A stretch of 64,000 nt of DNA from Trypanosoma brucei (taxonomy: Eukaryota): the NCBI GenBank assembly GCA_000002445.1, contig CH464491.1, forward strand, positions 2,784,001 to 2,848,000, given 5' to 3'. Shown here piece after piece: positions 2,654-40,353 of this stretch; positions within the stretch are counted from its first letter, which is position 1, and the number at the start of each line of letters is the position of its first letter. The translations under genes were made by a program, and so were the position numbers. Below the pieces are notes generated by a model, which did no database searches, had not been told where the DNA came from, and was given only the letters and a program-made list of their open reading frames with translations.

Positions 2654-5600
2654 ATGCCCTTCGCTCCCCAGGGACCTGTGATGGACCTGTACAACTCTGA
2701 TGAAGGGGATCTCCTCGCAATCAGGAGTGAAATGTGGATGTGCGCAGACAGTGAAAAGATGTTCAAGGTGGGCGCTGGCCGGGGGTCAAAGAACATTGTG
2801 AGCATTGAAAACGGGCATTTCTTTGTTTACTCCACTTGCGGAAAGCAGTCGCGGTTGATTAAGGACGTCCCCTTTCATTCAGTAAAGCGCACTGCGTCAT
2901 TTGTACATGATCCAAAGGTGTCTGGTGCGTCCACTGTGTCTGGGATGCAAACGGCGGCTTCGTCCTCGTCATCTTCAGCACGATCACGAGATAGGCGTGC
3001 GGATGTCCAGGTGCCTCCTTACTACTATCTCGTACTGGAGTTCGTACGGGATAAAACGGTAGCCGAGTCGACAAACCTAGCAAAGCGTGAGCACGTTGTG
3101 TTATGCACGGATAACGTGCAGGATTTTCAGTACTGGCAGCAATTCGTTGGGAGGTATAAGTGTCAGTTGAATCGCACTCAGCGACCTGATGAGAGTGTAG
3201 TGGGAGGGCGACGAAGTGGGAAAGGGTGTGTGAAAAGCGCATCACATAAGGAGTGTGATGATAGTGGAAGTGATGAGACGAACCTGGACATCAGCACACT
3301 CACAATGAAACTAGATGAGTTGCAGGAGTGGAAACGAATAGCAGTAGACCTCGCGGATGCGGTGGCGTCGTCGGGGGCGTTCCCTAACTGTAGACGAGAA
3401 TCGTTATCGAATACGGAACCAAATGTGGAGTTTAGTCTGAAATACGTAGAAAAACTGCTTGGTGAGCTGCGGAAAGGGGTGGATTGCCGGTTGAATACAC
3501 TGAACGAGACACAGCCTCCGCTGCCGCTGGTTAAAGATCTTAAACAGCAACTGGAATTGTGGAACAGTCTGTACGACAGAACCTTCTCTGACGACCGCAC
3601 TTCCGAAGCGAGGGGGCTTTTCACAAAAGAGCGGCAACAAGTGCGTGTGCAACGAATGGAAAACATTATTGCGAGGGAACGTACAGAGGGGTGCACAAAA
3701 TTGTCCCCAGTTGTAAGCCGGAGGGAGCTCGTAACATCACCTGAGGAGTGGTTGCAACTTCCCTGCTTGTCTACCTTAAGTGACGCTGATAGTGCACAAA
3801 ACTTAGTTGGAGGACAACGCGAGGGGGGAGTCTTAGACGGTAGCGCAATTACACTGTTAAGCAGTAGCACAGTCCATGCGGATGCACCTCAGGAAGTGTG
3901 GCAACGAGAGCGGAACTTGAGTAGTGCAAATGAAGGTGATATGTTCGCCGAATTGCGGGCGGCGCACCGCAACCTAGGACTGAGATCAGCTCCTCAACAC
4001 GAGTTCCACCAGCTGGAACGCGAGAAGAAAAATACAGAGCGGCTCGCCCGCGAAGGACTCCGTGCTTACACGGAGGCGACAATTGTACTTCTTCAGGCGT
4101 GTTATAGCGAGTACGTAACGGTGGTGGAATGTGTGCTATCTGCCATAAGCGGCGGCGTGGACACACGCGGCGAAAGAAGGCTTGTTACGGCGTATGCGCA
4201 CCTGCAGACGGTTGCAGCACTGGATGAAGCCCGCCGTGCCGCCACGGCGAAGCAGACTCTTCTAGAGAATCTTGTGAACGAACTCAAGGACCTCCAAAAG
4301 ACGCGGGACGAAGAGATTAACGCATTACGCAAAACCTTTTTTCGAGCCAAAGACGGATGGGAGAGTGATCTCGCAGTATTGCAAACAAAGTTAAGGACAC
4401 TGCAGAACACAATGACACAGACAACAGTCGTCGTGCCTTCCGACACGGTGTCATTCCCGCCTCTAGAAAGGGCTCTTTGCGGTGGTGAAAGCAGCCAAGA
4501 ACTGGGGAGGGACAGTGGTGAAGACAAAGTCTCAAACACTAAAATCGAGAGCGTAGACAAAGCAAGTTATGATGAATGTGATGAAGCGGATAGCGACGAA
4601 TCCATTAGGCGGTGGGCAACGCGGCTCACGTGCAGCCACGGTGAACAACGTGGCCACATTATAGCGTTCCGTTTAGAACGGTTCTTTCACTGGACACTCG
4701 AGAACGTCGTACCACTATGCTCCGGCGCAGACACAAACTGTTTGTTAGAACTCGTCATGCGTGCGTTAAGTAATCACATAACACTACTTCAAGCTGCAGG
4801 TGAGGTCTTCGGTACACAGGATGTCAAAGTTAGCGTGGACGACAACGGCGTCCGCGAGAGTAGAGACTTATGCAGTTCAATCCGAGACTTACACACGCAA
4901 CACAGCACCCTGAAGCATCTAGTAGGCAAATATATTGCCCTCACGGAAAATGAAGAAGACAGCCCCGTACTAAGATGCGACGAATTGGAAAAGCAATTAC
5001 AGCTCCACCAGTTTAATACAGCCACATTAGATCATATAAACAGCCTATTAGGAACTGACAACATGACCATAAAAAGGCGAATACAGGATATGATTCAAAA
5101 CGAAGAGCAGCTCCTCAGAATACAGGAAATCACAGGATCAAAAAGAGAAATATGCACAGTACAACACGTGCGACAAAAACACGAAGAACTTCGACAAATG
5201 AGCGAACTGATTAATCGATTAGATCAGTCACGAATGCACCAAGAAAAAGATCTAACAACACAAAATTACGAAGCCTTCACACAAATGAACACATCCGTCA
5301 AGAAAGCAGAGGAAATAATAGAAAATACAACGAAAAAATACAACGAGCTACAGCTACGAATAGACTTCGACAAAATAGAATTCAATGAACGCCTCCAAAT
5401 AGTACACGAATACTACAACGAACATCCACAGCATTACCATAACAACAAGATAAACAAACAAATCGAAGAACTAAATGAAATAATAGAAAAACAACAAAAT
5501 CTCATTGGACATCAAGATAAAAAAGAAAAAAAAACGGAAAGAAACTCATCTACACGTGCCCAGTGCCTACAAGGTATTGAGTCAGCTCTGGCTGTGCTTG

Positions 5601-8600
5601 GTACAACGGAGGCAGAAATGCCACTGGCATCAGCAATTCAGCGTGCTGCCGAGGAAGCTAAGGTTAGGGAAGACACACTGAAGCAAGAGCTAGACGAGGC
5701 TATGGGACGGGAAACTGCTCTGGAGGAACAACTGCGCAATCTGTCGCAAGCAACTATCGCACTACAAGGTACACTGTATGGTGGAGAAATGCCTACGGGG
5801 AATGATGGATCTGCCTTGGATGTTGGTCATGCTGCTATGAGTGCACTGGAGCGTATGCGTGAGGACGCTGCTAAGGCATCGGGGGTCATGACTGCCGCTA
5901 TGCAGGAAGGAGAAATGAGTGTACCCCTGTTAGCAAAATGTCACCATATGGCAGAGACCACGAATGCATTACGCGACAGTGAAAAGCATTACCGTGCGCT
6001 TGTAGGGGAGGACGTCAAGAAGGATAGCGGTTCCACTGGAACAGATGACTCATCTACACGTGCCCAGTGCCTACAAGGTATTGAGTCAGCTCTGGCTGTG
6101 CTTGGTACAACGGAGGCAGAAATGCCACTGGCATCAGCAATTCAGCGTGCTGCCGAGGAAGCTAAGGTTAGGGAAGACACACTGAAGCAAGAGCTAGACG
6201 AGGCTATGGGACGGGAAACTGCTCTGGAGGAACAACTGCGCAATCTGTCGCAAGCAACTATCGCACTACAAGGTACACTGTATGGTGGAGAAATGCCTAC
6301 GGGGAATGATGGATCTGCCTTGGATGTTGGTCATGCTGCTATGAGTGCACTGGAGCGTATGCGTGAGGACGCTGCTAAGGCATCGGGGGTCATGACTGCC
6401 GCTATGCAGGAAGGAGAAATGAGTGTACCCCTGTTAGCAAAATGCCACCATATGGCAGAGACCACGAATGCATTACGCGACAGTGAAAAGCATTACCGTG
6501 CGCTTGTAGGGGAGGACGTCAAGAAGGATAGCGGTTCCACTGGAACAGATGACTCATCTACACGTGCCCAGTGCCTACAAGGTATTGAGTCAGCTCTGGC
6601 TGTGCTTGGTACAACGGAGGCAGAAATGCCACTGGCATCAGCAATTCAGCGTGCTGCCGAGGAAGCTAAGGTTAGGGAAGACACACTGAAGCAAGAGCTA
6701 GACGAGGCTATGGGACGGGAAACTGCTCTGGAGGAACAACTGCGCAATCTGTCGCAAGCAACTATCGCACTACAAGGTACACTGTATGGTGGAGAAATGC
6801 CTACGGGGAATGATGGATCTGCCTTGGATGTTGGTCATGCTGCTATGAGTGCACTGGAGCGTATGCGTGAGGACGCTGCTAAGGCATCGGGGGTCATGAC
6901 TGCCGCTATGCAGGAAGGAGAAATGAGTGTACCCCTGTTAGCAAAATGCCACCATATGGCAGAGACCACGAATGCATTACGCGACAGTGAAAAGCATTAC
7001 CGTGCGCTTGTAGGGGAGGACGTCAAGAAGGATAGCGGTTCCACTGGAACAGATGACTCATCTACACGTGCCCAGTGCCTACAAGGTATTGAGTCAGCTC
7101 TGGCTGTGCTTGGTACAACGGAGGCAGAAATGCCACTGGCATCAGCAATTCAGCGTGCTGCCGAGGAAGCTAAGGTTAGGGAAGACACACTGAAGCAAGA
7201 GCTAGACGAGGCTATGGGACGGGAAACTGCTCTGGAGGAACAACTGCGCAATCTGTCGCAAGCAACTATCGCACTACAAGGTACACTGTATGGTGGAGAA
7301 ATGCCTACGGGGAATGATGGATCTGCCTTGGATGTTGGTCATGCTGCTATGAGTGCACTGGAGCGTATGCGTGAGGACGCTGCTAAGGCATCGGGGGTCA
7401 TGACTGCCGCTATGCAGGAAGGAGAAATGAGTGTACCCCTGTTAGCAAAATGCCACCATATGGCAGAGACCACGAATGCATTACGCGACAGTGAAAAGCA
7501 TTACCGTGCGCTTGTAGGGGAGGACGTCAAGAAGGATAGCGGTTCCACTGGAACAGATGACTCATCTACACGTGCCCAGTGCCTACAAGGTATTGAGTCA
7601 GCTCTGGCTGTGCTTGGTACAACGGAGGCAGAAATGCCACTGGCATCAGCAATTCAGCGTGCTGCCGAGGAAGCTAAGGTTAGGGAAGACACACTGAGGC
7701 AAGAGCTAGACGAGGCTATGGGACGGGAAACTGCTCTGGAGGAACAACTGCGCAATCTGTCGCAAGCAACTATCGCACTACAAGGTACAGTATGTGAAGA
7801 TGGTGCGGATGTGAGTTGTGATATTTCTACTTTTGATCTTTGTAGTGTGGCATTTCTTTCTTTGGGTGTTATTGAAAGTGCTTTTGAGTGTTCAATATCT
7901 CGTGAAGTCTCCCTGAAGAAACAGGTGGAAGAGGCTCATAAAAGAGAAGTTGCGCTCAGGTCTCGATTGAAGTCTTTGGCGAGTGCGGCAACAGCTGTTC
8001 AGAGTACATTGGACGGAAATGCTTCTCCAGAAAGAGTTAGTCCCAAGGAGTCTTCTATTTGTTCTGGTGATGAAGTGGATGGTGACGATGCTTTTGTTGA
8101 TCCTTTTGTTGCCGTTCAACGTGCTGCAGAGGAGTCAAAGGCTTGTAGGAATGCACTGGAAGAAAAACTGAAGGAGGGTGCTGCACGGATTGACGCTGTT
8201 GAGGGACGGCTCTTGCAACTTTCACGTTCCATTATTTGTCTGCACTCTAAGTTGTTTGATGCAGAAATAGGTGGCAATGGTGAGGAACGCGCCGTGGAGT
8301 TAAGTGAGTTGGCTCTTGTTGCTGCTGATGCCATTGAAAACGCTTTTGAGTGTTCAATATCTCGTGAAGTTTCCCTGAAGAAAAAGGTGGAAGAGGCTCA
8401 TAAAAGAGAAGTTGCCCTTAAAACGCGTTTGAAATGCTTGGTTGGTGCGGCAACAGCTGTTCAGTGTACGTTGGAAGGTGGGAATTATTCCTGCACCGCA
8501 GATGACCCTTTAAGTTTGTCGGGTTGTGATATGTCTGCCTCTACCAACCTGGACGATTCTGTACTGGGATCTGTCGCGGCAATTCAGCGTGCTGCCGAGG

Positions 8601-11600
8601 AAGCTAAGGTTAGGGAAGACACACTGAAGCAAGAGCTAGACGAGGCTATGGGACGGGAAACTGCTCTGGAGGAACAACTGCGCAATCTGTCGCAAGCAAC
8701 TATCGCACTACAAGGTACACTGTATGGTGGAGAAATGCCTACGGGGAATGATGGATCTGCCTTGGATGTTGGTCATGCTGCTATGAGTGCACTGGAGCGT
8801 ATGCGTGAGGACGCTGCTAAGGCATCGGGGGTCATGACTGCCGCTATGCAGGAAGGAGAAATGAGTGTACCCCTGTTAGCAAAATGCCACCATATGGCAG
8901 AGACCACGAATGCATTGAATGAGAACGACCGCGAGCTGCGGATGATGTCCAGAAACTTATCCTTTCAACTCTCTGTAGCTATGTTGTTTTTGGAAGAGGC
9001 TGAAGAACGACTAACCCATGTTGTTCGGTATGGATGGGTCCCGGCGAAAGTTGTTTCTGCCGCACTCTGTGGTTGGTTAGTGTTGTGTTGTGCGGGAGAT
9101 TTATTTCACTGCAGCTCTGGCGACACTATTTCTACCTTGGTTGATGTGCGGAAGGAGTTGGATGATCTTCGGAAGCTGTGTGGTTCTCAGAATGCCTTCG
9201 ATCACGGGGAAGTTGCGAATGTGTCGCGGTCGGAATGCTTGCTCGCGATTAAGCGATCCGTCGCTTCTCTTTGCGCTGATGGCGCCGCAGATCCGTCGTT
9301 ACCTCTCCCAACTCAGTTGCAGAAGTGCGTGCAGTCAACCGTGGACGAAATGTATCGCCTTCGTGATGACGCGGATAGTGCGTTGAGTGAAAACGTCAGA
9401 CTAAAACGGGATTTGCAGATGGTTGTCGGGGGCTGTGAAACCTCCCTCGAGTATTTGGGAAGTGCGTGTGGATCCTCTTTGTGTCCCGCACTCAGTCCGC
9501 GATCAGGTGTAGCAGCGGTGTCTAACCTCGTCGTAATGACGGCACGAATTGCAAGTGAGAAATTGTCGAGTCTGCGATCCGTGTGTGAGGAATGTAACTC
9601 TGTTATTGAGCGTGCCCGTAGGAGAGAAGAGCGGTCTCACTCGCGGGAGTCTTCGCCAGCGTCACATCGTGTAGAGGATGGCGCAGAGGCTTTACTTGTG
9701 GAGCGTTGCAAAGAGCTGGTGTCGGAGCTGCTCGTGTTGCGTACCGATCGACGGACTAGCACGGCTGCAATAGACCAGAGGCTTATGGAGAGTGAGTTGA
9801 TGGTGACATCCGTACGAAATGCCATAGAGAACCTACGAACTTCCCTTGATATCGATGTACCTATCGGCACACCTGCCCTGGATTTAGTAAGGACTTCTGG
9901 TAGTTGTGGAGAAGCAGTTGAAGGTGCTATCAGTGAGAAAAGGCAAGTTTCCGCCACCGGACCGAGTTTAGCGGAACTGGACACCTCTATCCGTACCCAG
10001 CTCGAACTCTGCGTGCTTGCAGTGATCAGACAATTACGTGAAAAGGACCGGGTAATTTCCGCTGCGGCAACTTTGTTGGGAGATGCGCTGCGTTCATGCT
10101 CCAGTGCCATTAGAGACGAAGTTACTACTGATTCGCTTTTAGCGGTTGCAAGCGGTACTGCTCACAGTCTGCACTCCCTATTCTCAGAGTTACAGAGTGT
10201 TCGTGCGTCGCTTAAACAATCGCAGCACCACACGGAAGAGCTGCGTACGCGGTTGGAGGGGGGAGAAACAACGCAGCTGGCAACTCTGGAGGCGCAGACG
10301 GAGTCAGTTGCCACAGCGGAACGGCTACTTAATGAGGCACTACAACGACAAGTTGCGGCATCAGCGCAAACAGCAAGACTACAGCGGACGCTCATGGACT
10401 TCGCAGGAAGCATAGCAGCTTCAACGCTTTATGCTGACGATGCAGGTGACCGCGTTGATAAAACGGGAGATGTGGGGGCGTCGGTTTCCGTAGTGGAAGA
10501 GAGATGGCTAGACGGTATTGTAAGGCACGTTGCTCAGCGCATGCAGGAGTCTGAAAGTCTTAAGGGAAAGCTGAAGTTGGTTACATCAGAATTGGAGAGT
10601 GTACGAATAAGGATGACCGCTACTGAGGTGGCTGCACGGGAAGCAGAATTGAATGCGCAGAGTGTGGAAGTCGGTAATCTCACGCGGATAGCTGAAGCAA
10701 CGGCTCGTGTCGAGTTACTTCGCAACGCACTCAGTGAAAGAAGCGTGGAGTTGCAGAAGATGCACCAGCGTGTAGAGCGTCATGAGAAACAGGTGGAAAC
10801 TCTGAAGGCGGAGATTTCAAACGATGCGCGTTCTTTTGACAACGAGCGCTGCAGCCTCCTGCGAGCGCAATCCACGTTGCTAGCAGAAAATACACTGAAA
10901 CAGCAACAACTGGATGAACTTCGCCAAAAGCTATGGGAAGGTGAGAAAAGTCTCCACGAGTTCCTTCATAATTCTCGAGTGGTGTCGTTGGTCGATGCCA
11001 CAAATAAAATACGGAGCCTCTCGGCCAACGCCGTGTGCGGGGTTTTAATGCTTGACGAAATGGAGCGACGCTCCGAGATACTTCAGAGCTATATACTGAG
11101 TTTCCCGACGCAGGAAAGTACCCTTCTGAGTGTTTGTGCTTGCATTGCTAGCACCCTTTCTGAGCGTGAGGTGCAACGACTGCCTGACAGCGTGCACCGA
11201 CTTAACCAGCGGGTGCAGAAGTACAAACATTTGCTAGGAAACCCCACCAAAGTGCCAGGACCTACGCGAGCAGTGGCCGTTTTAGCCTTGCAAAAGTTGG
11301 CTGAAACAGTGGAGCTAGCGGAATCCGTGAGCAGCACATCCTTTGTTTCTAATTTGATCGCAGCCGTTGCCGATTTTCGGACTAGGTATCTAATAGCGAA
11401 CGAGCGGATAGCTAAACTGGAAAAGGAAGTGAATAGCGGCGGAACATTAATGGAGATGTGTGACAGACGGGTATGGGAAATGGTTAAGTTGCTCCGACAG
11501 GCCAACAGTGTCGGAGGGTTACACAGTGGGTCGCAGGAAGGGCCGCGGGGAGAGTGCCAAACCGACGTTGTAGACTTTTCAGTTGCTCAACTTGACGCCC

Positions 11601-14600
11601 TTCAGAGCTTGGCTTTAGAGTGTGGAATTGCTGCTAAATATATCCATCGTCATACCGAAGCAAACAGGAAGGCATTGGAAACTCTGCGTCATGTATATGA
11701 CGGCGAATCGATATTCGAAGCTTGTAGTCACGCCAATGAAATGATGATGAAGTACCGTGAGTCTGAGGAAGACTTGCGGGCTCAACTACTGGACGTACGT
11801 TCGCAGTTGGAAGCATGTCGACACAGCATTGAGGAAAGCTTTAGTGTGTTCGCCGAGACGAGTACGTTGAATGATGCTAAAAAGGTTGAGTTTCTCCAAC
11901 AACAGTGTGCTGCCGCTGCGGCGGAATTAAGGCGTCTCAAAGATGAAGCGCGCGTAGCACAGGGCCTTCTTGCAAGCGCTGGGCACGATACCCATGACGG
12001 TGATATCTGCAGGAACCTCGCAGAGTTGTTGAAAGAAGAAGAAAAGCAGCGAGAGTGTGTGAACCTACTCCAGTCGGAGAAGAAATGCGCGCGAAAGCAG
12101 TTGCAAGAATTAGGGAACAAACTGAGAGCAACGGAAGAAATGAGGAACGCTGAACTAGAAGAGGTGCAAAACCGCAATGACACATTGCGCACACGCTTGG
12201 AGGAACAGTCGAGGCAAAACAATGAATGGTGTCAATTTGTTTCGACATGTGCCGGTGTTGTTGGATGCCCTGTGGAGAACATGCAGTTTGAAAAGAGCAA
12301 AAATAAGATACTTCAAACTTTAAGGAATGTAGCCTCTTCGCAATCCGTATGCGCTGAGGCGGGAATACTCTGCACAACCGCGCAGGAGGAACAACTGCAG
12401 TGCCATCGCGAGGGGGCGAACGCGGCCGTTGCGCGTCTGGACATGCCAGGTAGCGAAAGATACCGCTGCCAACTGCTAGAGTTTGTGGGAAGTGTCGAAG
12501 AAGTCCTTTCCGAGTTGTGTCCCGAGAAGTCTGAAAGCTTTCTAACAACCAAAGATGCTCCTTTGGAGCTCCGCGTGTGCCAGGCGGCTGGACAACTGTG
12601 TTCGGCAAAAGATACTGTGCAGGCGAACATACAAAAACTGGAGGCTGAAATTGCTTCTGCCAAGAAGAAAAACAAAGCTCAAAAAAGAGAGATGGAAGAT
12701 GCGAGGAAGGCCCTTCACAAGGAACTTGAGGTTGGCGGCCCGGCGGTTGCATCTTGTGCTCTTTCAACACTTACTGAAGGCATTCGAAAAAAACTCCGTG
12801 AGACGCTTGACGAAAATCGAAAACTGGGAACGGCCTTGGAGGAGCTACGCATCGATAATGCGCAACTGGAGAGGACTCTAAGGTGTGTGGAACAACAACT
12901 CTCTGAGACGCATACGCAACTACAGTGCATCACAGAGTCAAATGGTGAATGCAGAGGTCAAAATGCCACCCTGCAGGAGAGAGTTGACCCGCTTACTGAA
13001 CCTACTGAAGAGGCTTCCAGGAAGTTCAGGAGCCCAACTCAGTCACCCGACATTGATGCTGATGCCGCCGGCCTTGCGCAAGTTCACGAAGTTTGCTTCG
13101 GTAGGGGGCCGAGCATACAACACCGCAGTGAGGAACCACGGGAGTTTGAGGATAATCTAAGGGGTAACTGCCGCAGTGATGCCGCTGCTGTGATGGACGT
13201 AGGTGTAGCGCCGAAAGAACAGCGTTCACTCCTGGAGAGGCTGCAGCAGGTGACCAAGGAACGCGACGTCTTGACATTGGAATCGGAAAAACTCGTTGAA
13301 CGTGTGCAGAGTGTGCTTTATGAGCACTTGAACGTCCAGCAGGAATTACTTTCCTATTGTAGTAACGCAAATGAAAATGAGTTGGGGGAAAGCGACACAA
13401 CCGTGGGGGATATTGTCCAGCTTTGCGTTGAGCGTCTGGAGCACTACCTCTCTGAAACAAAGACGCTGAGGGAAGACGCTACCTCCGCAAAACTAGAAAG
13501 CGCACGGATGGCAGAAGAGGTGGCTGCACTACGGGGTCGCATCAAACACCTCCAGGACGACAACCACGTAGCGGAACGGGACTCACTCAGGCAAAATGCA
13601 GAATTCGAGAGTCTGTCACGTCAGCTGCAGGCGTTCTTTAACGATGCATTGCACATGGCAGTCAATGACCTGCGACTCCGCTTGCCACCTGTCACAGACA
13701 CAAGCGCCATCGGGGCACTCTACGGTCTCCAGTCTCTTTTCGACTGCATGCTAAGTAAATGTCGTGATTCTATTGCTTTCGATGAAGAAAAGCTAAATTG
13801 CAGACTGAACGAACTGAAAGGAAAGCATGCGAAGGATTTAAAGAGTTTGCATCGCGTTTTTTGCGCCCACGTGACGACGTACACGGACGACCCAAATGAC
13901 GAGGACTCTGCTCGTAGCGAAGGTGACGGCAGCAGTCCCGTCAATTTGCCCACCACCGACAGGCTCAGCGGAGGGCTCACACCAGAACATATTGTTGCTG
14001 CGGGAGACGCACTGCATCACGTGCACAGCAACGTTTGTCACATTGTATGGGCATGTATACGACATGCGGAGAGGGCGCCCCCTCCTTCATTACATACAAT
14101 GGGCCTACCCGCGCTAACAGCACTTTTAGGGGAGGTTGTCGTTGCCTCACTAGAGCGGGCGGAGCTGCTGCAAGGGGCGATGGTGGCTGGGTCGAGGGCA
14201 CTTGGAATTCTTCCAGTGGACCCTTCTTTAAACCAGCAGCACATGGAGGAATGGTTAGAATGTTTTACCTCAGAAATTCAGCGCGTTCAGCGAAGCGGTG
14301 AAGGTTGTGAGCTCTTGCTTAATCATTTAGAGATTCTCCTACAAGACCACGGGATCAGCGTCGGAGAGTTAGTCAGCAACAGCCGCAGCCAAAGCACACT
14401 CAGTAATGTTGGTCGACTTTCACAAGACAACCAACTTGGCTCACCCCGTGGTCCCAGCAGCAGCGTGGCGGTGCAGGATGTCATGGAGTTTCGCTCTCGT
14501 GCACTGCTCGGTGCGTTGCGCGACCTTATTGCACAATTTGAGCACCGCTACAGCACACTGACGTCCGAGTGGCAGGCACTAACAGATCAAAACAACCGGC

Positions 14601-14905
14601 TCAAGACTTCACAGCAGGCAAATGAGGAGGAGTTTGCACGCGTCCAGGAGCAAATGCAAGAGCTGCGGCATGCTGTAAGAAAGAAGGTTGAAGACGACCG
14701 CAAAGTGGAGCAGAGCTTACGTGATCTAGACAACCATCTCGACATGCAAGCAAGGGAGCTTGCCATGAAGTATCGTGCAGACCAAGAGGCGATTTCCAGG
14801 CAGTTTGCAGAGTTGCGTGGGTCGATTCGCAGGGTGGTAATACCAACACAAGAGCAGTTGGGGACGCCGTCTCCGAAATACGATTTCGTGTACCCTAGGG
14901 AATAA
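2654..14905 (+). CDS. Giant (4083 aa) coiled-coil repeat protein with an N-terminal globular region. Function unknown (cytoskeletal/flagellar-type giant protein by inference).
   Basis: This is a single uninterrupted 12.25-kb ORF. It is heptad-rich and Glu/Leu/Ala/Arg/Gln-rich. It contains about 4.4 near-identical 504-nt (168 aa) tandem units at nt 5546-7785 and an additional copy at 8578-8917. A second 462-nt repeat family lies at 7786-8570. An alternative start exists at 2681 (MDLYNS). Confidence 0.8.
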   Translation: MPFAPQGPVMDLYNSDEGDLLAIRSEMWMCADSEKMFKVGAGRGSKNIVSIENGHFFVYSTCGKQSRLIKDVPFHSVKRTASFVHDPKVSGASTVSGMQTAASSSSSSARSRDRRADVQVPPYYYLVLEFVRDKTVAESTNLAKREHVVLCTDNVQDFQYWQQFVGRYKCQLNRTQRPDESVVGGRRSGKGCVKSASHKECDDSGSDETNLDISTLTMKLDELQEWKRIAVDLADAVASSGAFPNCRRESLSNTEPNVEFSLKYVEKLLGELRKGVDCRLNTLNETQPPLPLVKDLKQQLELWNSLYDRTFSDDRTSEARGLFTKERQQVRVQRMENIIARERTEGCTKLSPVVSRRELVTSPEEWLQLPCLSTLSDADSAQNLVGGQREGGVLDGSAITLLSSSTVHADAPQEVWQRERNLSSANEGDMFAELRAAHRNLGLRSAPQHEFHQLEREKKNTERLAREGLRAYTEATIVLLQACYSEYVTVVECVLSAISGGVDTRGERRLVTAYAHLQTVAALDEARRAATAKQTLLENLVNELKDLQKTRDEEINALRKTFFRAKDGWESDLAVLQTKLRTLQNTMTQTTVVVPSDTVSFPPLERALCGGESSQELGRDSGEDKVSNTKIESVDKASYDECDEADSDESIRRWATRLTCSHGEQRGHIIAFRLERFFHWTLENVVPLCSGADTNCLLELVMRALSNHITLLQAAGEVFGTQDVKVSVDDNGVRESRDLCSSIRDLHTQHSTLKHLVGKYIALTENEEDSPVLRCDELEKQLQLHQFNTATLDHINSLLGTDNMTIKRRIQDMIQNEEQLLRIQEITGSKREICTVQHVRQKHEELRQMSELINRLDQSRMHQEKDLTTQNYEAFTQMNTSVKKAEEIIENTTKKYNELQLRIDFDKIEFNERLQIVHEYYNEHPQHYHNNKINKQIEELNEIIEKQQNLIGHQDKKEKKTERNSSTRAQCLQGIESALAVLGTTEAEMPLASAIQRAAEEAKVREDTLKQELDEAMGRETALEEQLRNLSQATIALQGTLYGGEMPTGNDGSALDVGHAAMSALERMREDAAKASGVMTAAMQEGEMSVPLLAKCHHMAETTNALRDSEKHYRALVGEDVKKDSGSTGTDDSSTRAQCLQGIESALAVLGTTEAEMPLASAIQRAAEEAKVREDTLKQELDEAMGRETALEEQLRNLSQATIALQGTLYGGEMPTGNDGSALDVGHAAMSALERMREDAAKASGVMTAAMQEGEMSVPLLAKCHHMAETTNALRDSEKHYRALVGEDVKKDSGSTGTDDSSTRAQCLQGIESALAVLGTTEAEMPLASAIQRAAEEAKVREDTLKQELDEAMGRETALEEQLRNLSQATIALQGTLYGGEMPTGNDGSALDVGHAAMSALERMREDAAKASGVMTAAMQEGEMSVPLLAKCHHMAETTNALRDSEKHYRALVGEDVKKDSGSTGTDDSSTRAQCLQGIESALAVLGTTEAEMPLASAIQRAAEEAKVREDTLKQELDEAMGRETALEEQLRNLSQATIALQGTLYGGEMPTGNDGSALDVGHAAMSALERMREDAAKASGVMTAAMQEGEMSVPLLAKCHHMAETTNALRDSEKHYRALVGEDVKKDSGSTGTDDSSTRAQCLQGIESALAVLGTTEAEMPLASAIQRAAEEAKVREDTLRQELDEAMGRETALEEQLRNLSQATIALQGTVCEDGADVSCDISTFDLCSVAFLSLGVIESAFECSISREVSLKKQVEEAHKREVALRSRLKSLASAATAVQSTLDGNASPERVSPKESSICSGDEVDGDDAFVDPFVAVQRAAEESKACRNALEEKLKEGAARIDAVEGRLLQLSRSIICLHSKLFDAEIGGNGEERAVELSELALVAADAIENAFECSISREVSLKKKVEEAHKREVALKTRLKCLVGAATAVQCTLEGGNYSCTADDPLSLSGCDMSASTNLDDSVLGSVAAIQRAAEEAKVREDTLKQELDEAMGRETALEEQLRNLSQATIALQGTLYGGEMPTGNDGSALDVGHAAMSALERMREDAAKASGVMTAAMQEGEMSVPLLAKCHHMAETTNALNENDRELRMMSRNLSFQLSVAMLFLEEAEERLTHVVRYGWVPAKVVSAALCGWLVLCCAGDLFHCSSGDTISTLVDVRKELDDLRKLCGSQNAFDHGEVANVSRSECLLAIKRSVASLCADGAADPSLPLPTQLQKCVQSTVDEMYRLRDDADSALSENVRLKRDLQMVVGGCETSLEYLGSACGSSLCPALSPRSGVAAVSNLVVMTARIASEKLSSLRSVCEECNSVIERARRREERSHSRESSPASHRVEDGAEALLVERCKELVSELLVLRTDRRTSTAAIDQRLMESELMVTSVRNAIENLRTSLDIDVPIGTPALDLVRTSGSCGEAVEGAISEKRQVSATGPSLAELDTSIRTQLELCVLAVIRQLREKDRVISAAATLLGDALRSCSSAIRDEVTTDSLLAVASGTAHSLHSLFSELQSVRASLKQSQHHTEELRTRLEGGETTQLATLEAQTESVATAERLLNEALQRQVAASAQTARLQRTLMDFAGSIAASTLYADDAGDRVDKTGDVGASVSVVEERWLDGIVRHVAQRMQESESLKGKLKLVTSELESVRIRMTATEVAAREAELNAQSVEVGNLTRIAEATARVELLRNALSERSVELQKMHQRVERHEKQVETLKAEISNDARSFDNERCSLLRAQSTLLAENTLKQQQLDELRQKLWEGEKSLHEFLHNSRVVSLVDATNKIRSLSANAVCGVLMLDEMERRSEILQSYILSFPTQESTLLSVCACIASTLSEREVQRLPDSVHRLNQRVQKYKHLLGNPTKVPGPTRAVAVLALQKLAETVELAESVSSTSFVSNLIAAVADFRTRYLIANERIAKLEKEVNSGGTLMEMCDRRVWEMVKLLRQANSVGGLHSGSQEGPRGECQTDVVDFSVAQLDALQSLALECGIAAKYIHRHTEANRKALETLRHVYDGESIFEACSHANEMMMKYRESEEDLRAQLLDVRSQLEACRHSIEESFSVFAETSTLNDAKKVEFLQQQCAAAAAELRRLKDEARVAQGLLASAGHDTHDGDICRNLAELLKEEEKQRECVNLLQSEKKCARKQLQELGNKLRATEEMRNAELEEVQNRNDTLRTRLEEQSRQNNEWCQFVSTCAGVVGCPVENMQFEKSKNKILQTLRNVASSQSVCAEAGILCTTAQEEQLQCHREGANAAVARLDMPGSERYRCQLLEFVGSVEEVLSELCPEKSESFLTTKDAPLELRVCQAAGQLCSAKDTVQANIQKLEAEIASAKKKNKAQKREMEDARKALHKELEVGGPAVASCALSTLTEGIRKKLRETLDENRKLGTALEELRIDNAQLERTLRCVEQQLSETHTQLQCITESNGECRGQNATLQERVDPLTEPTEEASRKFRSPTQSPDIDADAAGLAQVHEVCFGRGPSIQHRSEEPREFEDNLRGNCRSDAAAVMDVGVAPKEQRSLLERLQQVTKERDVLTLESEKLVERVQSVLYEHLNVQQELLSYCSNANENELGESDTTVGDIVQLCVERLEHYLSETKTLREDATSAKLESARMAEEVAALRGRIKHLQDDNHVAERDSLRQNAEFESLSRQLQAFFNDALHMAVNDLRLRLPPVTDTSAIGALYGLQSLFDCMLSKCRDSIAFDEEKLNCRLNELKGKHAKDLKSLHRVFCAHVTTYTDDPNDEDSARSEGDGSSPVNLPTTDRLSGGLTPEHIVAAGDALHHVHSNVCHIVWACIRHAERAPPPSLHTMGLPALTALLGEVVVASLERAELLQGAMVAGSRALGILPVDPSLNQQHMEEWLECFTSEIQRVQRSGEGCELLLNHLEILLQDHGISVGELVSNSRSQSTLSNVGRLSQDNQLGSPRGPSSSVAVQDVMEFRSRALLGALRDLIAQFEHRYSTLTSEWQALTDQNNRLKTSQQANEEEFARVQEQMQELRHAVRKKVEDDRKVEQSLRDLDNHLDMQARELAMKYRADQEAISRQFAELRGSIRRVVIPTQEQLGTPSPKYDFVYPRE
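5546..7785 (+). repeat. In-frame tandem repeat array, 504-nt unit x ~4.4, >99% nucleotide identity between copies.
   Basis: The string tcatctacacgtgcccagtgcctacaagg recurs at 5546, 6050, 6554, 7058 and 7562, an exact 504-nt period. I saw only two differences between copies: a synonymous T/C at about 5940, and AAG to AGG (K to R) at about 7697 in the last unit. Confidence 0.95.
7786..8570 (+). repeat. Second, more divergent in-frame repeat family (about 462-nt unit, 2 copies) inside the giant ORF.
   Basis: The motif ESAFECSISREVSLKKQVEEAHKREVALRSRLKSLASAATAVQSTLDG is repeated as ENAFECSISREVSLKKKVEEAHKREVALKTRLKCLVGAATAVQCTLEGG. The anchor gcttttgagtgttcaatatctcgtgaagt occurs at about 7881 and about 8343. 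Confidence 0.85.
8578..8917 (+). repeat. Dispersed extra copy (about 340 nt) of the 504-nt repeat unit, separated from the main array by the second repeat family.
   Basis: AAIQRAAEEAKVREDTLKQELDEAMGRETALEEQLRNLSQATIALQGTLYGGEMPTGNDGSALDVGHAAMSALERMREDAAKASGVMTAAMQEGEMSVPLLAKCHHMAETTNAL is identical to the core of the unit at 5546-7785. Confidence 0.9.
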
Positions 14906-15717: not shown

Positions 15718-18700
15718 TTGATTCTACCGGTGCAAGTCACTATGTCGTCCCGCGATTTGAGGGGTCGGGCGTGTTCAAATTCAACTGCGGCTAGTGCTTC
15801 GCGACTGCTCTGTCTGCCATGGGAACTCGTTGAAGTTGAGCTTCCGAAAGAAATGGATGTTCCGGTAAGTGAATCACTATTTTCTGTTGGAAACGGACGT
15901 GTAACCGTCCGGGGATATACGGAGGAGTCACTCGTTGCGCCCCCGTATTCGAGGGGTACAAACTCTCACGATATAGCCATCCGTAGTCCTGTAGTTTCCT
16001 TGTACGGTGGTATTGGCAATGATGTCATCAAGGTGGGGAACAGGAGTTTGAGCAACAGTCATCTCCTTGGAAACCCATCTTCACCCGTTAGGTGTGACTC
16101 GTTACCCACCGAGGGGCACCCGACCGCCTCCAAAGAATGGAAGCCCCCTGAACGAACCCTGCGTGGGACTTACGTCAACGGGATCTGCGAGGAGCTTCTG
16201 TTAACCCATCATCAGCAGCAAAGGGCATTCACTGTTGGAACTTGTGCTCGTGAGTCATTTCTTGTATGTGCGCCGGATGCCTTTTGCATCGACGTTTTTG
16301 TCGGAGGTGAGCACGTGAATTCAGAAACAGGGATCATACTTTCGCACAGACGCACGTTAGATTATCACACGGGTGAGCTTCGTCGGCACCTGGTGTGGCA
16401 ATCCAGGAGTAATGGGCACGAGGTGACCATTGAGTCTTCAAGAATTGTTTCCCTAACACGGAGGAGCATCGCAGCAGTTAAATATTCTGTTAGTGCCAAG
16501 AACGTCTCCAATACGAATATCCGCATCGTATCTCGTACCATTGTTCCTTCGGGTGTGCGACAACACCTTAAGATTGAAAATGTTATGACTAGGCGCACTC
16601 TGCATGACGCTTCGACAGCGGTGCTTGTGCGCACACGAAATAGTTGCAAGCGGTTAGTGGTGGCTGAGTTTGAGGCTTGTCGTAGCACGCACTACGAGCT
16701 CATTAACACACAGAGTGTGCCGACGTTTTCAACTGTTACAAGTGCAGTAGGAGCACATGGTGCTAACACTCCACCGTGCGCCGTAGCAGCAGATGCGTCT
16801 TTAGCTGCAGGCCGGACACCATTGGCTTCGCCTAAGCCGATGGCACAACCACAGCCGCAACCAACACCATCCTTGACCTTCCTCGCACCGAAATGTTCTG
16901 AGATACGAAACGGCGCAGAAACCATCTACACCAGCGTAATACGTGAGTCTACACGGTTTGAGCTTACCAAATACATTGCCTTCCTAGTTGACGAGGATGC
17001 AGCACCGGAGGATATTTGTGACCTGGGAATGCACCGTGCTCGAGAAGCGGCTGCTGTCACCTACGAGGCCATCTGTCGCGAACAGTTGGACGTTTTGTCA
17101 AATTTCTGGGAGAGAGGGAATGTACATATCAAAGCCAGTGGTCCGTCGCTTGAAAGTGCGGTGAGATTTAACATGCTGCACCTTCTTATGTCGTCGGGAG
17201 GGTTACAAATGCAAAGTCACCCGTCGCGTGGTTTTATGAGTCAGCTGCAGGGAGGCATGCACCAGTGGGATGTAGACGCGTTTATCGTTCCTTTTTTCTC
17301 ACATGTGCGCCCCGAAGTCGCACGCGGGTTGTTGCAGTTTCGTATTGACACGCTGCCGCAAGCGAGAAGCCTTGCGGCGGACGTTGATCTTCCACGAGGT
17401 GCACTATACCCACAGAGGACTGTGAACGGTTTGGAAAGCAATCCTCCGCCGTTCTGCGCGGCCTTCCTGTTTACAAATGCGGTTGTTGCGTACGGTATGA
17501 AGCAGTATATTACTGCCACAAATGATTTCTCCATTCTACCGCAAGGTGGTGCTGATGTTCTCTTTTCTACTGCGCTCATTTGGCTTATATGGGGTACGTG
17601 GGATAAAGCAGAGTTCCACGTTAGATCTGTGGGGGGACCCGATGATTACAGCTGTCTCGGTGATAATAATTACTTTACAAATCTCATGGCAAAGTTTCAC
17701 ATGCAGTGGGCGGTGCAAATAGCCGCATCGATGCAAAGAGACTATCCTAACGAATGGGAAGGCGTGAAGGAGAGATGCCAACTAACTGATGATGACCTTG
17801 CAATGATGGACAAGGCCGCTGCAAAGGTGGTACTAGTTTTCGATGCCAAAAATCGTGTGCACCCTGTTGATCAGTTATTCATGAGGAAGAAAAAGTGGAA
17901 ATTTGATGAACTGAAGAAGAAGAAAAGTCTTCTATTTCGTACGTTTGACCCTTCTGTTGTTTACCGACATCAGGTATGTCGCATTCCCGACGTGGTTCTT
18001 GCCTCGCTTTTATTGCCGGAAAAGTGCACAAAAGACGAGGTGCGTGCCAACTACAATTTCTATGAGCCTATCACCACAAGCGATTGCTCGCTTACCTCGA
18101 TGATATTTAGTATCATTGCAATACAACTTGATATGTTGGACAAGGGAATGCACTATTTCCACCAGGCTCTCTTCAACGATATTGAAAATGCGCTCGGTAA
18201 TACAGCCCGCGGCATCCACTGCAGCTCCGCGGCGGGATCTTGGTGGTGTTTGACCGTTGGATTCGGTGGAATGAGGGTAGTTGATGACACACTGCACTTT
18301 AACCCTGTTCTCCCTGACGCGTGGGAGGAGTACCAGTTTTTTGTGCGCCATCACGGTTGCCTTATCAAGGTGCTTATTACTCGCAGGATGGTCACATATA
18401 CGGCTGTGGAGGGGTGCTTCGACAGGTGCGGTTTGCCGATTTATCATACGGAGATCAACACCATCCACCTGAAGGAAGGCATGTCTGAATCCGTGAGGCT
18501 TTACCGCGATGTTCGCGTATTTGACTTCGACTGTGTGGTGTTTAATCTTGACAGTTTGATCGAGGACCTGGAGGACCATCACTACCGCGCATGGAAGCAA
18601 ACCCTCGAGAAATACCTTCACGAAATGGGGCAAACTTCATTTGTGCTTACAGAGGACATATATCTTGCATACCTCAAGAATGGAAATTCGTTCACATCAT

Positions 18701-19341
18701 CTCAACGCCTTCTTGCGAAGAACGGCATTACAAACATCCCTCCTGGTTGCCCAGATGATACCGTTGAGACGGACACAGTATATGGGTTGCTGCAGCGCAA
18801 GCGGCATAACTTCCGCGTTCAGATTCGGGAGGAGGGGCTCAAAGTAAAAAAAGGGGCGCTGCACCTCATGGCGGAGCTCCGACAGAACGGCATTTCCATT
18901 GGTTGTGTGACAGACAGTAAAAGTGGTCAGTGGATGCTGCGAAGGGTGCCACAAGTTATGTGCCTAATCGACCGCTGCATTGATGGAAGTGATGGGGAAG
19001 TTCTTTCCCTCTGCTGGCGCCCGGAGGTGGACTACTTCTGCTCTCTGTGCAAACAACTCAATACCAGCTTCGAACGGACTATCGTTATTATGCGTGGGAT
19101 TGGGGGGTTCTCGAAAAGCGCACTGGAACAGTTCAAATTAGTTGTGGACGTGCAGCGCGATGCGGAGTATGTGCCGGGTGGAGTGCATCCTGTGAATGTG
19201 CCGTGCATGAGCGTGTTAACACTCGGCAAGTTGGATGAGTATGCCTCGAAAAGGAAATTAGTTGCCGTAGCGGGGGATGCCGATAGGCCCGCCACCGCAC
19301 CAAATAATATGGAGGGCGCTCCACCGGACCAGTTGGAATGA
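15718..19341 (+). CDS. Glycoside hydrolase family 65 (maltose/trehalose/kojibiose-phosphorylase-like) fused to a C-terminal HAD-superfamily (beta-phosphoglucomutase-like) domain.
   Basis: The N-terminal motif ESLFSVGNGRVTVRGYTEE resembles the GH65 N-domain signature ESLFxxxNGYLGxRG. The central motif LESAVRFNMLHLLMS resembles the GH65 catalytic-domain motif xIRFNLFHLLQ. The C-terminal 250 aa carry the HAD motif-I-like FDFDCVVFNLDSL (DxDG-type). An alternative start lies at 15742 (MSSRDL). Confidence 0.8.
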   Translation: MILPVQVTMSSRDLRGRACSNSTAASASRLLCLPWELVEVELPKEMDVPVSESLFSVGNGRVTVRGYTEESLVAPPYSRGTNSHDIAIRSPVVSLYGGIGNDVIKVGNRSLSNSHLLGNPSSPVRCDSLPTEGHPTASKEWKPPERTLRGTYVNGICEELLLTHHQQQRAFTVGTCARESFLVCAPDAFCIDVFVGGEHVNSETGIILSHRRTLDYHTGELRRHLVWQSRSNGHEVTIESSRIVSLTRRSIAAVKYSVSAKNVSNTNIRIVSRTIVPSGVRQHLKIENVMTRRTLHDASTAVLVRTRNSCKRLVVAEFEACRSTHYELINTQSVPTFSTVTSAVGAHGANTPPCAVAADASLAAGRTPLASPKPMAQPQPQPTPSLTFLAPKCSEIRNGAETIYTSVIRESTRFELTKYIAFLVDEDAAPEDICDLGMHRAREAAAVTYEAICREQLDVLSNFWERGNVHIKASGPSLESAVRFNMLHLLMSSGGLQMQSHPSRGFMSQLQGGMHQWDVDAFIVPFFSHVRPEVARGLLQFRIDTLPQARSLAADVDLPRGALYPQRTVNGLESNPPPFCAAFLFTNAVVAYGMKQYITATNDFSILPQGGADVLFSTALIWLIWGTWDKAEFHVRSVGGPDDYSCLGDNNYFTNLMAKFHMQWAVQIAASMQRDYPNEWEGVKERCQLTDDDLAMMDKAAAKVVLVFDAKNRVHPVDQLFMRKKKWKFDELKKKKSLLFRTFDPSVVYRHQVCRIPDVVLASLLLPEKCTKDEVRANYNFYEPITTSDCSLTSMIFSIIAIQLDMLDKGMHYFHQALFNDIENALGNTARGIHCSSAAGSWWCLTVGFGGMRVVDDTLHFNPVLPDAWEEYQFFVRHHGCLIKVLITRRMVTYTAVEGCFDRCGLPIYHTEINTIHLKEGMSESVRLYRDVRVFDFDCVVFNLDSLIEDLEDHHYRAWKQTLEKYLHEMGQTSFVLTEDIYLAYLKNGNSFTSSQRLLAKNGITNIPPGCPDDTVETDTVYGLLQRKRHNFRVQIREEGLKVKKGALHLMAELRQNGISIGCVTDSKSGQWMLRRVPQVMCLIDRCIDGSDGEVLSLCWRPEVDYFCSLCKQLNTSFERTIVIMRGIGGFSKSALEQFKLVVDVQRDAEYVPGGVHPVNVPCMSVLTLGKLDEYASKRKLVAVAGDADRPATAPNNMEGAPPDQLE

Positions 19342-40162: not shown

Positions 40163-40313
40163 GCGCGTAGACGTTTGCTGTACTCCTCCATACCGTTTCC
40201 ATGGTGCATCGTTCAAACGTCCAAGCCAGAATCCGTTAATACACCCCGCGGTTTGCGGGTGACATACTGCGCGTGGGTCCACATGATATACCCACCTGCT
40301 TTTGTAATTATAT

Positions 40314-40315
<2 letters not shown>

Positions 40316-40353
<38 letters not shown>
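40316..40353. repeat. (GT)19 dinucleotide microsatellite.
   Basis: An uninterrupted gtgtgt... run directly downstream of the kinesin-like stop. Confidence 0.95.

What the first reader, a model, noticed from the sequence alone, without database searches (positions are those of the whole stretch)
5546..8917. Near-identical 504-nt in-frame tandem repeats (about 4.4 copies plus one dispersed copy) inside a 4083-aa coiled-coil giant ORF
Exact 504-nt periodicity: the same 29-mer recurs at 5546, 6050, 6554, 7058 and 7562. I counted only two substitutions across about 2.2 kb, and a further identical 340-nt copy sits about 800 nt downstream beyond a second, more divergent 462-nt repeat family. That level of identity in coding DNA implies very recent expansion or ongoing concerted evolution (gene conversion or unequal crossover). 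It also means the copy number here is likely collapsed or variable between strains and assemblies. Each unit encodes a 168-aa coiled-coil module. The protein therefore looks like a molecular ruler or scaffold whose length could vary with repeat number, as seen for kinetoplastid cytoskeletal and flagellar giant proteins. The N-terminal ~170 aa (up to about 3170) look globular and may be the targeting domain.
Basis: seen in the sequence. Interest (0 to 1): 0.65.

Follow-up and report, generated by a model that had tools for sequence, protein, structure and literature searches.

The report
Repeat array of trypanosome basal-body protein BBP590
The near-identical 504-base repeats are real and lie inside the already named Trypanosoma brucei basal-body giant protein TbBBP590; this version of the reference sequence carries far fewer copies than a long-read assembly does, so the true protein is probably much longer than annotated.

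Summary
Four full 504-nt units plus a 235-nt partial unit lie at 5544-7794, with two substitutions. A 784-nt diverged spacer follows, then a 338-nt copy at 8579-8916 that is identical to units 2-4. All are in frame in ORF 2654-14905.

The ORF is exactly T. b. brucei TREU927 XP_829130.1 (Q383L3). By its neighbours it is Tb927.11.10660, published as TbBBP590, a protein tagged to the mature basal body.

Copy number differs between assemblies: 4.5 units here, 6.5 in T. b. gambiense, and 18.5 + 4.3 + 0.7 with a duplicated spacer in a T. b. equiperdum assembly. The published 590.1 kDa mass equals this protein plus one spacer block and five units. The window therefore holds a collapsed version.

Four substitutions are fixed in every copy within a lineage, which indicates concerted evolution. 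Orthologues from Leishmania to Bodo keep a PH-like N-terminal domain and a conserved C-terminus. Most have their own homogenised array at the same position, with units of 28-170 aa.

The unit is predicted as four helices, and only one of them looks coiled-coil-like. A p197-like length-setting spacer is the best functional guess, but it is untested. This is a solid, modestly novel new member of a known kind.

The parts
2654..14905 (+). Giant ORF of 4083 aa and 450.3 kDa. It is identical to T. b. brucei TREU927 XP_829130.1 / EAN80018.1 / UniProt Q383L3, and is inferred to be Tb927.11.10660 (TbBBP590).
   Evidence: The gene ID is inferred from the flanking genes: AP-3 beta (Tb927.11.10650) upstream and the GH65 putative trehalose phosphorylase (Tb927.11.10670) downstream.
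2708..3178 (+). N-terminal PH/PTB-like domain (aa ~19-175), with a disordered Ser-rich insert at aa ~88-120. It is conserved from Trypanosoma to Bodo.
5544..7794 (+). Tandem array A: units at 5544-6047, 6048-6551, 6552-7055 and 7056-7559, plus a partial unit at 7560-7794. Each unit is 504 nt (168 aa).
7795..8578 (+). Spacer block S (784 nt). It holds two diverged copies of part of the unit, which form the 462-nt family at 7848-8016 and 8310-8478. S is present once here and in gambiense, and twice (identical copies) in the equiperdum assembly.
   Evidence: At the protein level, S matches unit aa 31-113 and 22-125 at 31-33% identity. Searches give the copy counts in the other assemblies.
8579..8916 (+). 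Terminal partial unit (unit positions 90-427), 100% identical to units 2-4. Every S block in all three assemblies is followed by a copy entering at unit position 90; after the first S of equiperdum that copy opens a second tandem array, and this 338-nt copy corresponds to the one after the last S.
14444..14899 (+). Conserved C-terminal region (aa ~3931-4082), 39-49% identical to the Leishmania orthologues and about 32% to an unnamed bodonid-like protein.

Best explanation
The repeats are the central repeat domain of TbBBP590 (Tb927.11.10660). This is a giant, largely alpha-helical protein of the mature basal body of Trypanosoma brucei.

Shown here:
- The array is genuine.
- It is kept nearly identical within each lineage while diverging between lineages. 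This is concerted evolution, most simply by unequal recombination or gene conversion between units.
- Its copy number differs between assemblies.
- The window holds a collapsed version. It lacks at least one whole higher-order block (spacer plus flanking units) and several units. In a T. b. equiperdum assembly the reconstructed protein would be about 7,400 aa.

Inferred:
- The protein has two conserved ends, a PH/PTB-like N-terminal domain and a ~150-aa C-terminal region. These act as anchors.
- The homogenised four-helix 168-aa modules between them act as an extensible alpha-helical spacer, and their number sets the reach of the molecule at the side of the mature basal body. This is the same logic demonstrated for p197 of the tripartite attachment complex.
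For: Identity:
- The sequence is an exact match to XP_829130.1 / Q383L3.
- The neighbours are Tb927.11.10650 (AP-3 beta) and Tb927.11.10670 (GH65 trehalose phosphorylase).
- Tb927.11.10660 was a TbPLK BioID hit in the cytoskeletal pellet and tagged to the basal body (PMC4551316).
- It was named TbBBP590, found as a TbCEP57 BioID prey, and seen as a single focus at the side of the mature basal-body cartwheel (PMC5210500).
- It is a candidate CK1.2 substrate (PMC12222847).

Real array and copy number:
- The same architecture occurs in three independent assemblies, with 4.47, 6.47 and 18.47 units in array A.
- The equiperdum assembly also has a second spacer and a 4.3-unit array B.
- A short-read T. 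equiperdum OVI gene model starts immediately after the repeats.
- The 590.1 kDa given for this gene ID in 2017 equals the window protein plus one [S + flanks] block plus 5 units (590.1). It does not equal units alone, since 8 extra units give 592.6.

Concerted evolution:
- Lineage-fixed differences are present in nearly all copies.
- The T. cruzi unit is 170 aa, near-identical within the species but only 48% identical to the T. brucei unit.
- Leishmania and Novymonas arrays start at aa ~941-956 with units of 74-96 aa.
- Each Leishmania unit matches a Trypanosoma-only profile of helices 1-2 in register (21 matched stretches).

Anchor-spacer-anchor layout:
- The N- and C-termini are conserved and the middle is diverged.
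- The unit is predicted all-helical.

Precedent:
- p197 is listed in TriTrypDB with 3.5 repeats of 175 aa but really has about 26.
- Its length sets the distance between basal body and outer membrane (PMC9546609).
Against: - No experiment addresses BBP590 function, the orientation of its ends, or its size on gels.
- The unit model has low confidence (pLDDT 58.6, 3-sequence alignment), so the tertiary arrangement is unknown.
- Lotmaria and Bodo orthologues have no near-identical array, so homogenised repeats are not obligatory for the family.
- For p197 a non-repeat helical segment could substitute physically, so repeats as such need not be functional.
- The equiperdum array contains 17 single-base deletions, 8 of them in homopolymers. 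The assembly is therefore error-prone and its exact copy number could be off.
- The perfect identity of TREU927 units 2-4 may partly reflect consensus calling in a collapsed assembly.
- The match to 590.1 kDa is arithmetic. I did not see the sequence behind that figure.
- The gene ID rests on gene order, not on a direct ID-to-sequence table.
Confidence: 0.6

Rival explanations
1. The array is a neutral coding satellite. An alpha-helical filler region tolerates expansion and contraction by unequal recombination, so copy number drifts and has no length-setting role.
For: Unit length (28-170 aa) and copy number (about 3 to 57) vary widely between species and between deposited versions. Lotmaria and Bodo lack near-identical arrays. 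The p197 repeats can be physically replaced by a non-repeat helical region.
Against: An array sits at the same position (aa ~941-956) in Trypanosoma, Leishmania and Novymonas. The helix 1-2 motif at the start of the unit is conserved across them. The reading frame is preserved in every error-free assembly. Shortened p197 variants did not support function.
Confidence: 0.25
2. The array is a multivalent docking or phospho-regulation platform. Each unit presents the same binding or kinase site, for example in the Ser/Thr-rich linker DSGSTGTDDSSTR, for TbPLK, CK1.2 or a basal-body partner. Copy number would then set valency rather than length.
For: BBP590 lies in TbPLK and TbCEP57 proximity proteomes. 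Its phosphopeptides fall after CK1.2 knock-down. The most conserved part of the unit is a short motif at its start, STRAQCL.GIE.AL..LG.
Against: I did not obtain the positions of the phosphosites, and no binding partner is known. The Leishmania units lack the second half of the Trypanosoma unit and its Ser/Thr-rich linker.
Confidence: 0.12
3. The copies are an assembly artefact: false duplications created by the assembler from a single-copy segment.
For: Perfect identity of units 2-4 is what a mis-assembly could produce.
Against: Three independent assemblies, made for different subspecies, all contain the array with the same flanks, and the equiperdum one has more copies, not fewer. Within-array variants are shared between gambiense and equiperdum. 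Orthologous arrays exist in T. cruzi and Leishmania.
Confidence: 0.02

Closest known systems
TbBBP590 / Tb927.11.10660 (Dang et al. 2017, mBio, PMC5210500; McAllaster et al. 2015, MBoC, PMC4551316)
   Same: This is the same gene. The protein is an exact match to the TREU927 record, lies at the same chromosomal position between AP-3 beta and the trehalose phosphorylase, and is a giant coiled-coil-rich protein.
   Different: The published mass is 590.1 kDa, against 450.3 kDa encoded here, so the window is a shorter (collapsed) version. The papers do not describe the repeat array: 'repeat' occurs 0 times in the Dang et al. main text. Table S1 lists '8 x ISXO2-like transposase', which a Pfam scan of the unit does not reproduce.
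p197 (Tb927.10.15750), exclusion-zone filament protein of the tripartite attachment complex (Aeschlimann et al. 2022, PNAS, PMC9546609)
   Same: Both are giant basal-body-linked T. brucei proteins with a central domain of nearly identical alpha-helical repeats of ~170 aa (175 versus 168). Both have conserved termini and a repeat number under-counted in the reference (3.5 versus about 26 for p197; 4.5 versus at least 23 unit-equivalents here).
   Different: Sequence homology to p197 was not tested. p197 has an N-terminal zinc finger, whereas BBP590 has a PH-like domain. p197 orthologues outside T. brucei lack repeats, whereas BBP590 orthologues in T. cruzi, Leishmania and Novymonas have their own arrays. 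The ruler function is shown for p197 only.
Other trypanosome repeat-bearing cytoskeletal giants: NUP-1, FAZ1, FLAM3, ClpGM6, MARP (named from my own knowledge; NUP-1 and MARP1 appear in the table of PMC4551316)
   Same: These are large structural proteins with near-perfect in-frame tandem repeats that are prone to assembly collapse.
   Different: They sit at different locations (nuclear lamina, flagellum attachment zone, subpellicular corset) and have different unit lengths. No homology to any of them was tested here.

Membership tests
TbBBP590 (Tb927.11.10660) orthologue group | Sequence identity with the TREU927 protein record | tested here: met
   The exact sequence is XP_829130.1 / EAN80018.1 / Q383L3.
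TbBBP590 (Tb927.11.10660) orthologue group | Chromosomal position between Tb927.11.10650 (AP-3 beta) and Tb927.11.10670 (GH65 trehalose phosphorylase) | tested here: met
   An Adaptin_N ORF lies upstream and a GH65+HAD ORF downstream. The IDs come from PMC4263762, PMC4711719 and bioRxiv 2021.05.26.445766. I had no direct ID-to-sequence table.
TbBBP590 (Tb927.11.10660) orthologue group | Localisation to the mature basal body | not testable with these tools
   Literature only.
p197-like repeat spacer (single-molecule ruler) | Central domain of nearly identical alpha-helical repeats of ~170 aa | tested here: met
p197-like repeat spacer (single-molecule ruler) | Termini more conserved than the central region | tested here: met
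   only the N-terminal region (PH-like domain plus a weaker block at aa ~420-1030) and the C-terminal ~150 aa align to the orthologues; the ~2,900 aa between them do not.
p197-like repeat spacer (single-molecule ruler) | The two ends are anchored to different structures, and molecule length sets their distance | not testable with these tools
   This needs expansion microscopy with N- and C-terminal tags and length variants, as was done for p197.
p197-like repeat spacer (single-molecule ruler) | Sequence homology to p197 | not tested
Canonical coiled coil (for the 168-aa unit) | Continuous heptad periodicity without helix breakers along the module | tested here: not met
   In a crude heptad scan of my own, only unit aa ~29-75 score above the 99th percentile of a shuffled control. 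AF2 predicts four helices of 16, 52, 31 and 33 aa separated by Gly/Pro-rich loops. Across the whole protein, 33 segments covering 1806 of 4083 aa score as coiled-coil-like, in line with the '31 x CC' in Dang et al. Table S1.
PH / PTB superfold (N-terminal domain) | Seven-stranded beta-sandwich capped by a C-terminal alpha-helix | tested here: met
PH / PTB superfold (N-terminal domain) | Match to a Pfam PH or PTB sequence model | tested here: not met
   No PH or PTB family is found at E <= 10. The assignment is at fold level only.
Spectrin-type repeat | ~106-aa three-helix bundle recognised by sequence or fold | tested here: not met
   There is no Pfam hit. Foldseek returns only generic long-helix proteins with TM <= 0.27. 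The model confidence is low, so this result is weak.
ISXO2-like transposase (DDE_Tnp_IS1595), as listed for BBP590 in Dang et al. Table S1 | Significant match to PF12762 | tested here: not met
   It is not reported for the unit or the whole protein. It appears only as a 'faint' precomputed hit on an equiperdum fragment.

The most novel reading that the evidence does not exclude
BBP590 is a second p197-type single-molecule ruler. Its PH-like N-terminus and conserved C-terminus would be fixed to two different structures at the mature basal body. The number of homogenised modules, which differs between T. brucei subspecies (about 23 unit-equivalents in equiperdum) and is re-invented with different unit lengths across Kinetoplastida, would set a lineage-specific spacing in the basal-body / flagellar-pocket region.
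Probability: 0.25. Interest if true: 0.6.

Novelty: new member of a known kind. Interest (0 to 1): 0.35.

Why it matters
The practical point is that the deposited TREU927 protein (4083 aa, 450 kDa) is too short. Its mass, domain counts, peptide mapping, RNAi and tagging designs, and any structural fitting that uses Q383L3 all inherit this error. The last applies to Q383L3's listing among the candidates for a central-apparatus density.

The biological point is that a basal-body protein with conserved ends carries a repeat array that is re-homogenised in each lineage and sits at the same site from Trypanosoma to Leishmania. That makes it a ready-made natural experiment for the idea that repeat number sets cytoskeletal distances, which so far has been demonstrated only for p197.

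The phenomenon is not of a new kind. Near-identical repeats in trypanosome structural giants, and their collapse in assemblies, are well known.

Tried and rejected
- TRF found nothing in the region because its maximum period is 500. The repeat finder and my own scripts were used instead.
- The whole-protein homology search timed out.
- A search with a single unit returned only a T. cruzi marinkellei fragment.
- Pfam gave no family for the whole protein, the unit, the N-terminus or the C-terminal half.
- Rfam and tRNA scans of the window were empty.
- Foldseek on the two-unit model gave only generic helical proteins.
- BLASTP of the T. brucei or T. cruzi unit against the L. donovani unit was not significant. 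Only a profile of helices 1-2 detects the relationship, and those matches carry high compositional bias.
- The old-style IDs I guessed (Tb11.01.2430, Tbg972.11.11960) were blind guesses. They found nothing and should be ignored.
- The cryo-EM preprint lists Q383L3 only as one of five DomainFit candidates for an Ig-like density. I do not treat that as localisation evidence.
- Adding units alone does not reproduce 590.1 kDa, so that simple model was rejected in favour of an added spacer block.
Full report
**1. The observation**

The window has no Ns.

A base-by-base comparison at lag 504 shows an unbroken match from 5544 to about 7790. BLASTN of one unit against the window gives:
- four full units: 5544-6047, 6048-6551, 6552-7055 and 7056-7559;
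- a partial fifth unit at 7560-7794, covering unit positions 1-237 with one gap;
- a separate 338-nt copy at 8579-8916, covering unit positions 90-427, which is 100% identical to units 2-4.

Units 2-4 are identical to each other. Unit 1 differs at 5941 (TGT versus TGC, both Cys). The partial unit differs at 7698 (AAG to AGG, Lys to Arg).

Between the array and the last copy lies a 784-nt block, which I call S. It holds the 462-nt repeat family, 7871-8016 against 8333-8478 at 86% identity. At the protein level S consists of diverged copies of part of the unit, 31-33% identical to unit residues 22-125.

Everything is in frame in ORF 2654-14905, which encodes 4083 aa. TRF reported nothing only because its maximum period is 500.

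**2. What the gene is**

The ORF is, residue for residue, the T. brucei brucei TREU927 protein XP_829130.1 / EAN80018.1 / UniProt Q383L3, annotated 'hypothetical protein, conserved'.

The gene ID follows from the neighbours:
- The upstream ORF is an adaptin. AP-3 beta is Tb927.11.10650 (PMC4263762).
- The downstream ORF has GH65 N, central and C domains plus a HAD domain. It corresponds to Tb927.11.10670, a lateral-transfer candidate and putative trehalose phosphorylase.

The giant ORF between them is therefore Tb927.11.10660. This is an inference from gene order, because I had no ID-to-sequence table.

The literature on that gene is small:
- It was recovered in the cytoskeletal pellet fraction of a TbPLK BioID experiment and localised to the basal body by endogenous tagging (PMC4551316).
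- It was recovered again as a TbCEP57 BioID prey and named TbBBP590, at 590.1 kDa, with the motifs '31 x CC; 8 x ISXO2-like transposase; 2 x IncA'. 3D-SIM showed a single focus at the side of the mature basal-body cartwheel (PMC5210500).
- It is listed among potential CK1.2 substrates (PMC12222847).
- It is one of five DomainFit candidates for an Ig-like density in the central apparatus. I regard that evidence as weak.

None of these papers describes the repeat array. The word 'repeat' does not occur in the main text of Dang et al..

**3. Copy number**

| Assembly | Array A | After array A | Source |
|---|---|---|---|
| T. b. brucei TREU927 (this window) | 4 full units + 235-nt partial | S, then 338-nt copy | |
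| T. b. gambiense DAL972 (4419 aa = 4083 + 2 x 168) | 6 full units + partial | same S, same 338-nt copy | |
| T. b. equiperdum GCA_003543875.1 | 18 full units + partial | S; array B (unit positions 90-504, three full units, the 235-nt partial); a second S identical to the first; 338-nt copy; unique downstream sequence | |

The locus is therefore a higher-order repeat.

The equiperdum gene is annotated as many fragments because its units are 500-504 nt long. Array A carries 17 single-base deletions, 8 of them in homopolymers. I read these as sequencing errors. My recollection that this is a PacBio assembly is from memory, not from a tool. If they are errors, the intact protein would be 7417 aa.

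A short-read T. equiperdum OVI gene model begins immediately after the repeats, as expected when contigs break at such arrays.

The mass of 590.1 kDa that Dang et al. give for Tb927.11.10660 is not reproduced by adding units alone, since 8 extra units give 592.6 kDa. It is reproduced to 0.1 kDa by the window protein plus one [S + flanking partial units] block plus five units, which comes to 5401 aa. Another version of the same reference gene therefore most probably already contains a second S block. The window holds a collapsed version.

**4. Concerted evolution**

I projected all 39 units and partial units from the three assemblies onto one reference unit. Only 12 positions vary.
- Four positions (221, 248, 257, 299) carry one base in all TREU927 copies, including the 338-nt copy, and another base in all, or for one site (299) all but two, gambiense and equiperdum copies. 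Three of these changes are synonymous. The change at 248 turns Met into Ile.
- Positions 20, 104, 151 and 249 are polymorphic within the gambiense and equiperdum arrays. Two of the variants are shared between those two arrays.

Real arrays are therefore about 99-100% identical rather than perfectly identical. The perfection seen in TREU927 may partly reflect consensus calling in a collapsed assembly.

Between species:
- The T. cruzi orthologue has 170-aa units that are near-identical to each other but only 48% identical to the T. brucei unit.
- T. melophagium has a nested 28-aa repeat inside the long helix of the first unit.

**5. The family and its architecture**

An exhaustive profile search with the N-terminal ~960 aa found 27 proteins. 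They include giant orthologues in Leishmania species, Lotmaria, Novymonas, Angomonas and Bodo saltans.

BLASTP shows that two regions align well across the family:
- the N-terminal ~150 aa, 41-45% identical to Leishmania and about 30% to Bodo;
- the C-terminal ~150 aa, 39-49% identical to Leishmania (not detected in Bodo saltans; ~32% to an unnamed bodonid-like protein).

A weaker alignment (23-28% identity) covers aa ~420-1030 in Leishmania and Lotmaria only, and the ~2,900 aa between that region and the C-terminus do not align.

Near-identical arrays (at least 90% identity) start at residues 941-956 in most orthologues, with lineage-specific periods:

| Organism | Unit (aa) | Copies |
|---|---|---|
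| T. brucei | 168 | see section 3 |
| T. cruzi | 170 | not fully assembled |
| L. donovani | 92 | about 19 |
| L. martiniquensis | 92 | - |
| L. mexicana | 82 | about 6 |
| L. braziliensis | 74 | 34 or 57 in two deposited versions |
| Novymonas | 96 | - |
| Lotmaria, Bodo | none | - |

A profile built only from Trypanosoma helices 1-2 matches every Leishmania unit in register. Per-unit i-E values are 1e-6 to 1e-9 against a nine-sequence target set, with high compositional bias, so confidence is moderate. Plain BLASTP does not detect the relationship.

**6. Domains**

*Repeat unit.* A two-unit AF2 model, built from a 3-sequence alignment with pLDDT 58.6, predicts four helices per unit of 16, 52, 31 and 33 residues, separated by Gly/Pro-rich loops. 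My crude heptad scan marks only unit residues ~29-75 as coiled-coil-like. Over the whole protein it marks 33 segments covering 1806 of 4083 residues, close to the '31 x CC' in the published table. 'Coiled-coil module' is therefore only partly right for the unit. No known fold was recognised for it.

**7. How it most likely works**

Shown here:
- The array is real.
- It is homogenised within lineages.
- Its copy number differs between assemblies and is under-counted in this window.
- The protein has conserved ends and a variable helical middle.

From the literature:
- The protein sits at the side of the mature basal body.
- It lies close to TbPLK and TbCEP57.

Inferred:
- The ends are anchors.
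- The array is a length-setting flexible spacer, as demonstrated for p197. The reference lists 3.5 repeats of 175 aa for p197, but the real number is about 26, and shortened variants reduce the distance between basal body and outer membrane (PMC9546609).

Rival explanations are a functionally neutral coding satellite, a multivalent docking or phosphorylation platform, and an assembly artefact. The last is effectively excluded.

**8. Novelty and score**

The gene, its name and its localisation are published. The general phenomenon is well known in trypanosomes.

What appears new, at least within the open-access literature I could search:
- the explicit anatomy of the array, including its higher-order structure;
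- the evidence that the GenBank model is collapsed;
- the lineage-fixed substitutions;
- the PH-like N-terminal domain;
- the kinetoplastid-wide conservation of an array at the same site with different unit lengths.

I rate this a new member of a known kind, with interest 0.35.

Noticed in passing
window 50500-53500: A 3-kb stretch is ORF-poor and AT-rich (GC 0.37-0.39, against about 0.50 elsewhere) and holds many short T-rich repeats. It lies between a PUF-repeat ORF (47823-50498) and ORF 53547-54431. It may be a long UTR or an intergenic region.
   Followed up: no
window 15718-19341: This ORF is a GH65 (N, central and C domains) plus HAD fusion. It corresponds to Tb927.11.10670, a putative trehalose phosphorylase and a lateral gene transfer candidate in trypanosomatids.
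   Followed up: partly
window 38309-40353: A kinesin-like ORF (38309-40162) has a Pfam match covering only motor-domain positions 1-183 of 327. A perfect (GT)19 microsatellite follows at 40316-40353.
   Followed up: no
window 2654-2680: All orthologues align from Met10 of the T. brucei ORF (MDLYNSDEGDLL...). The annotated start may therefore be nine codons too early. An (AT)14 microsatellite lies upstream at 2125-2153.
   Followed up: no
P0023 and P0044 (L. braziliensis orthologues): Two deposited versions of the same L. braziliensis protein differ by 2651 aa: 3544 aa against 6195 aa, or about 34 against 57 copies of a 74-aa unit. The collapse or variation problem seen in T. brucei also affects the Leishmania orthologues.
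   Followed up: partly
P0003 (T. melophagium orthologue), aa ~1007-1131: A nested, near-identical 28-aa repeat (QLAEAAERASGLETMVAEHAEREERLEV) has expanded inside the long helix of the first unit. This is a different repeat solution at the same site.
   Followed up: no
Dang et al. 2017 Table S1, and L001 17795-19999: The published motif list for BBP590 includes '8 x ISXO2-like transposase'. A faint PF12762 hit is recorded on an equiperdum fragment. My Pfam scan of the unit at E <= 10 does not reproduce it. It is probably a spurious hit multiplied by the repeats.
   Followed up: partly
window 5322-5543: An A-rich, Lys/Asn/Glu/Gln-rich low-complexity segment lies immediately 5' of the array. AT skew is 0.30 over 4001-6000, and there is a 13-nt direct repeat at 5322-5346.
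   Followed up: no
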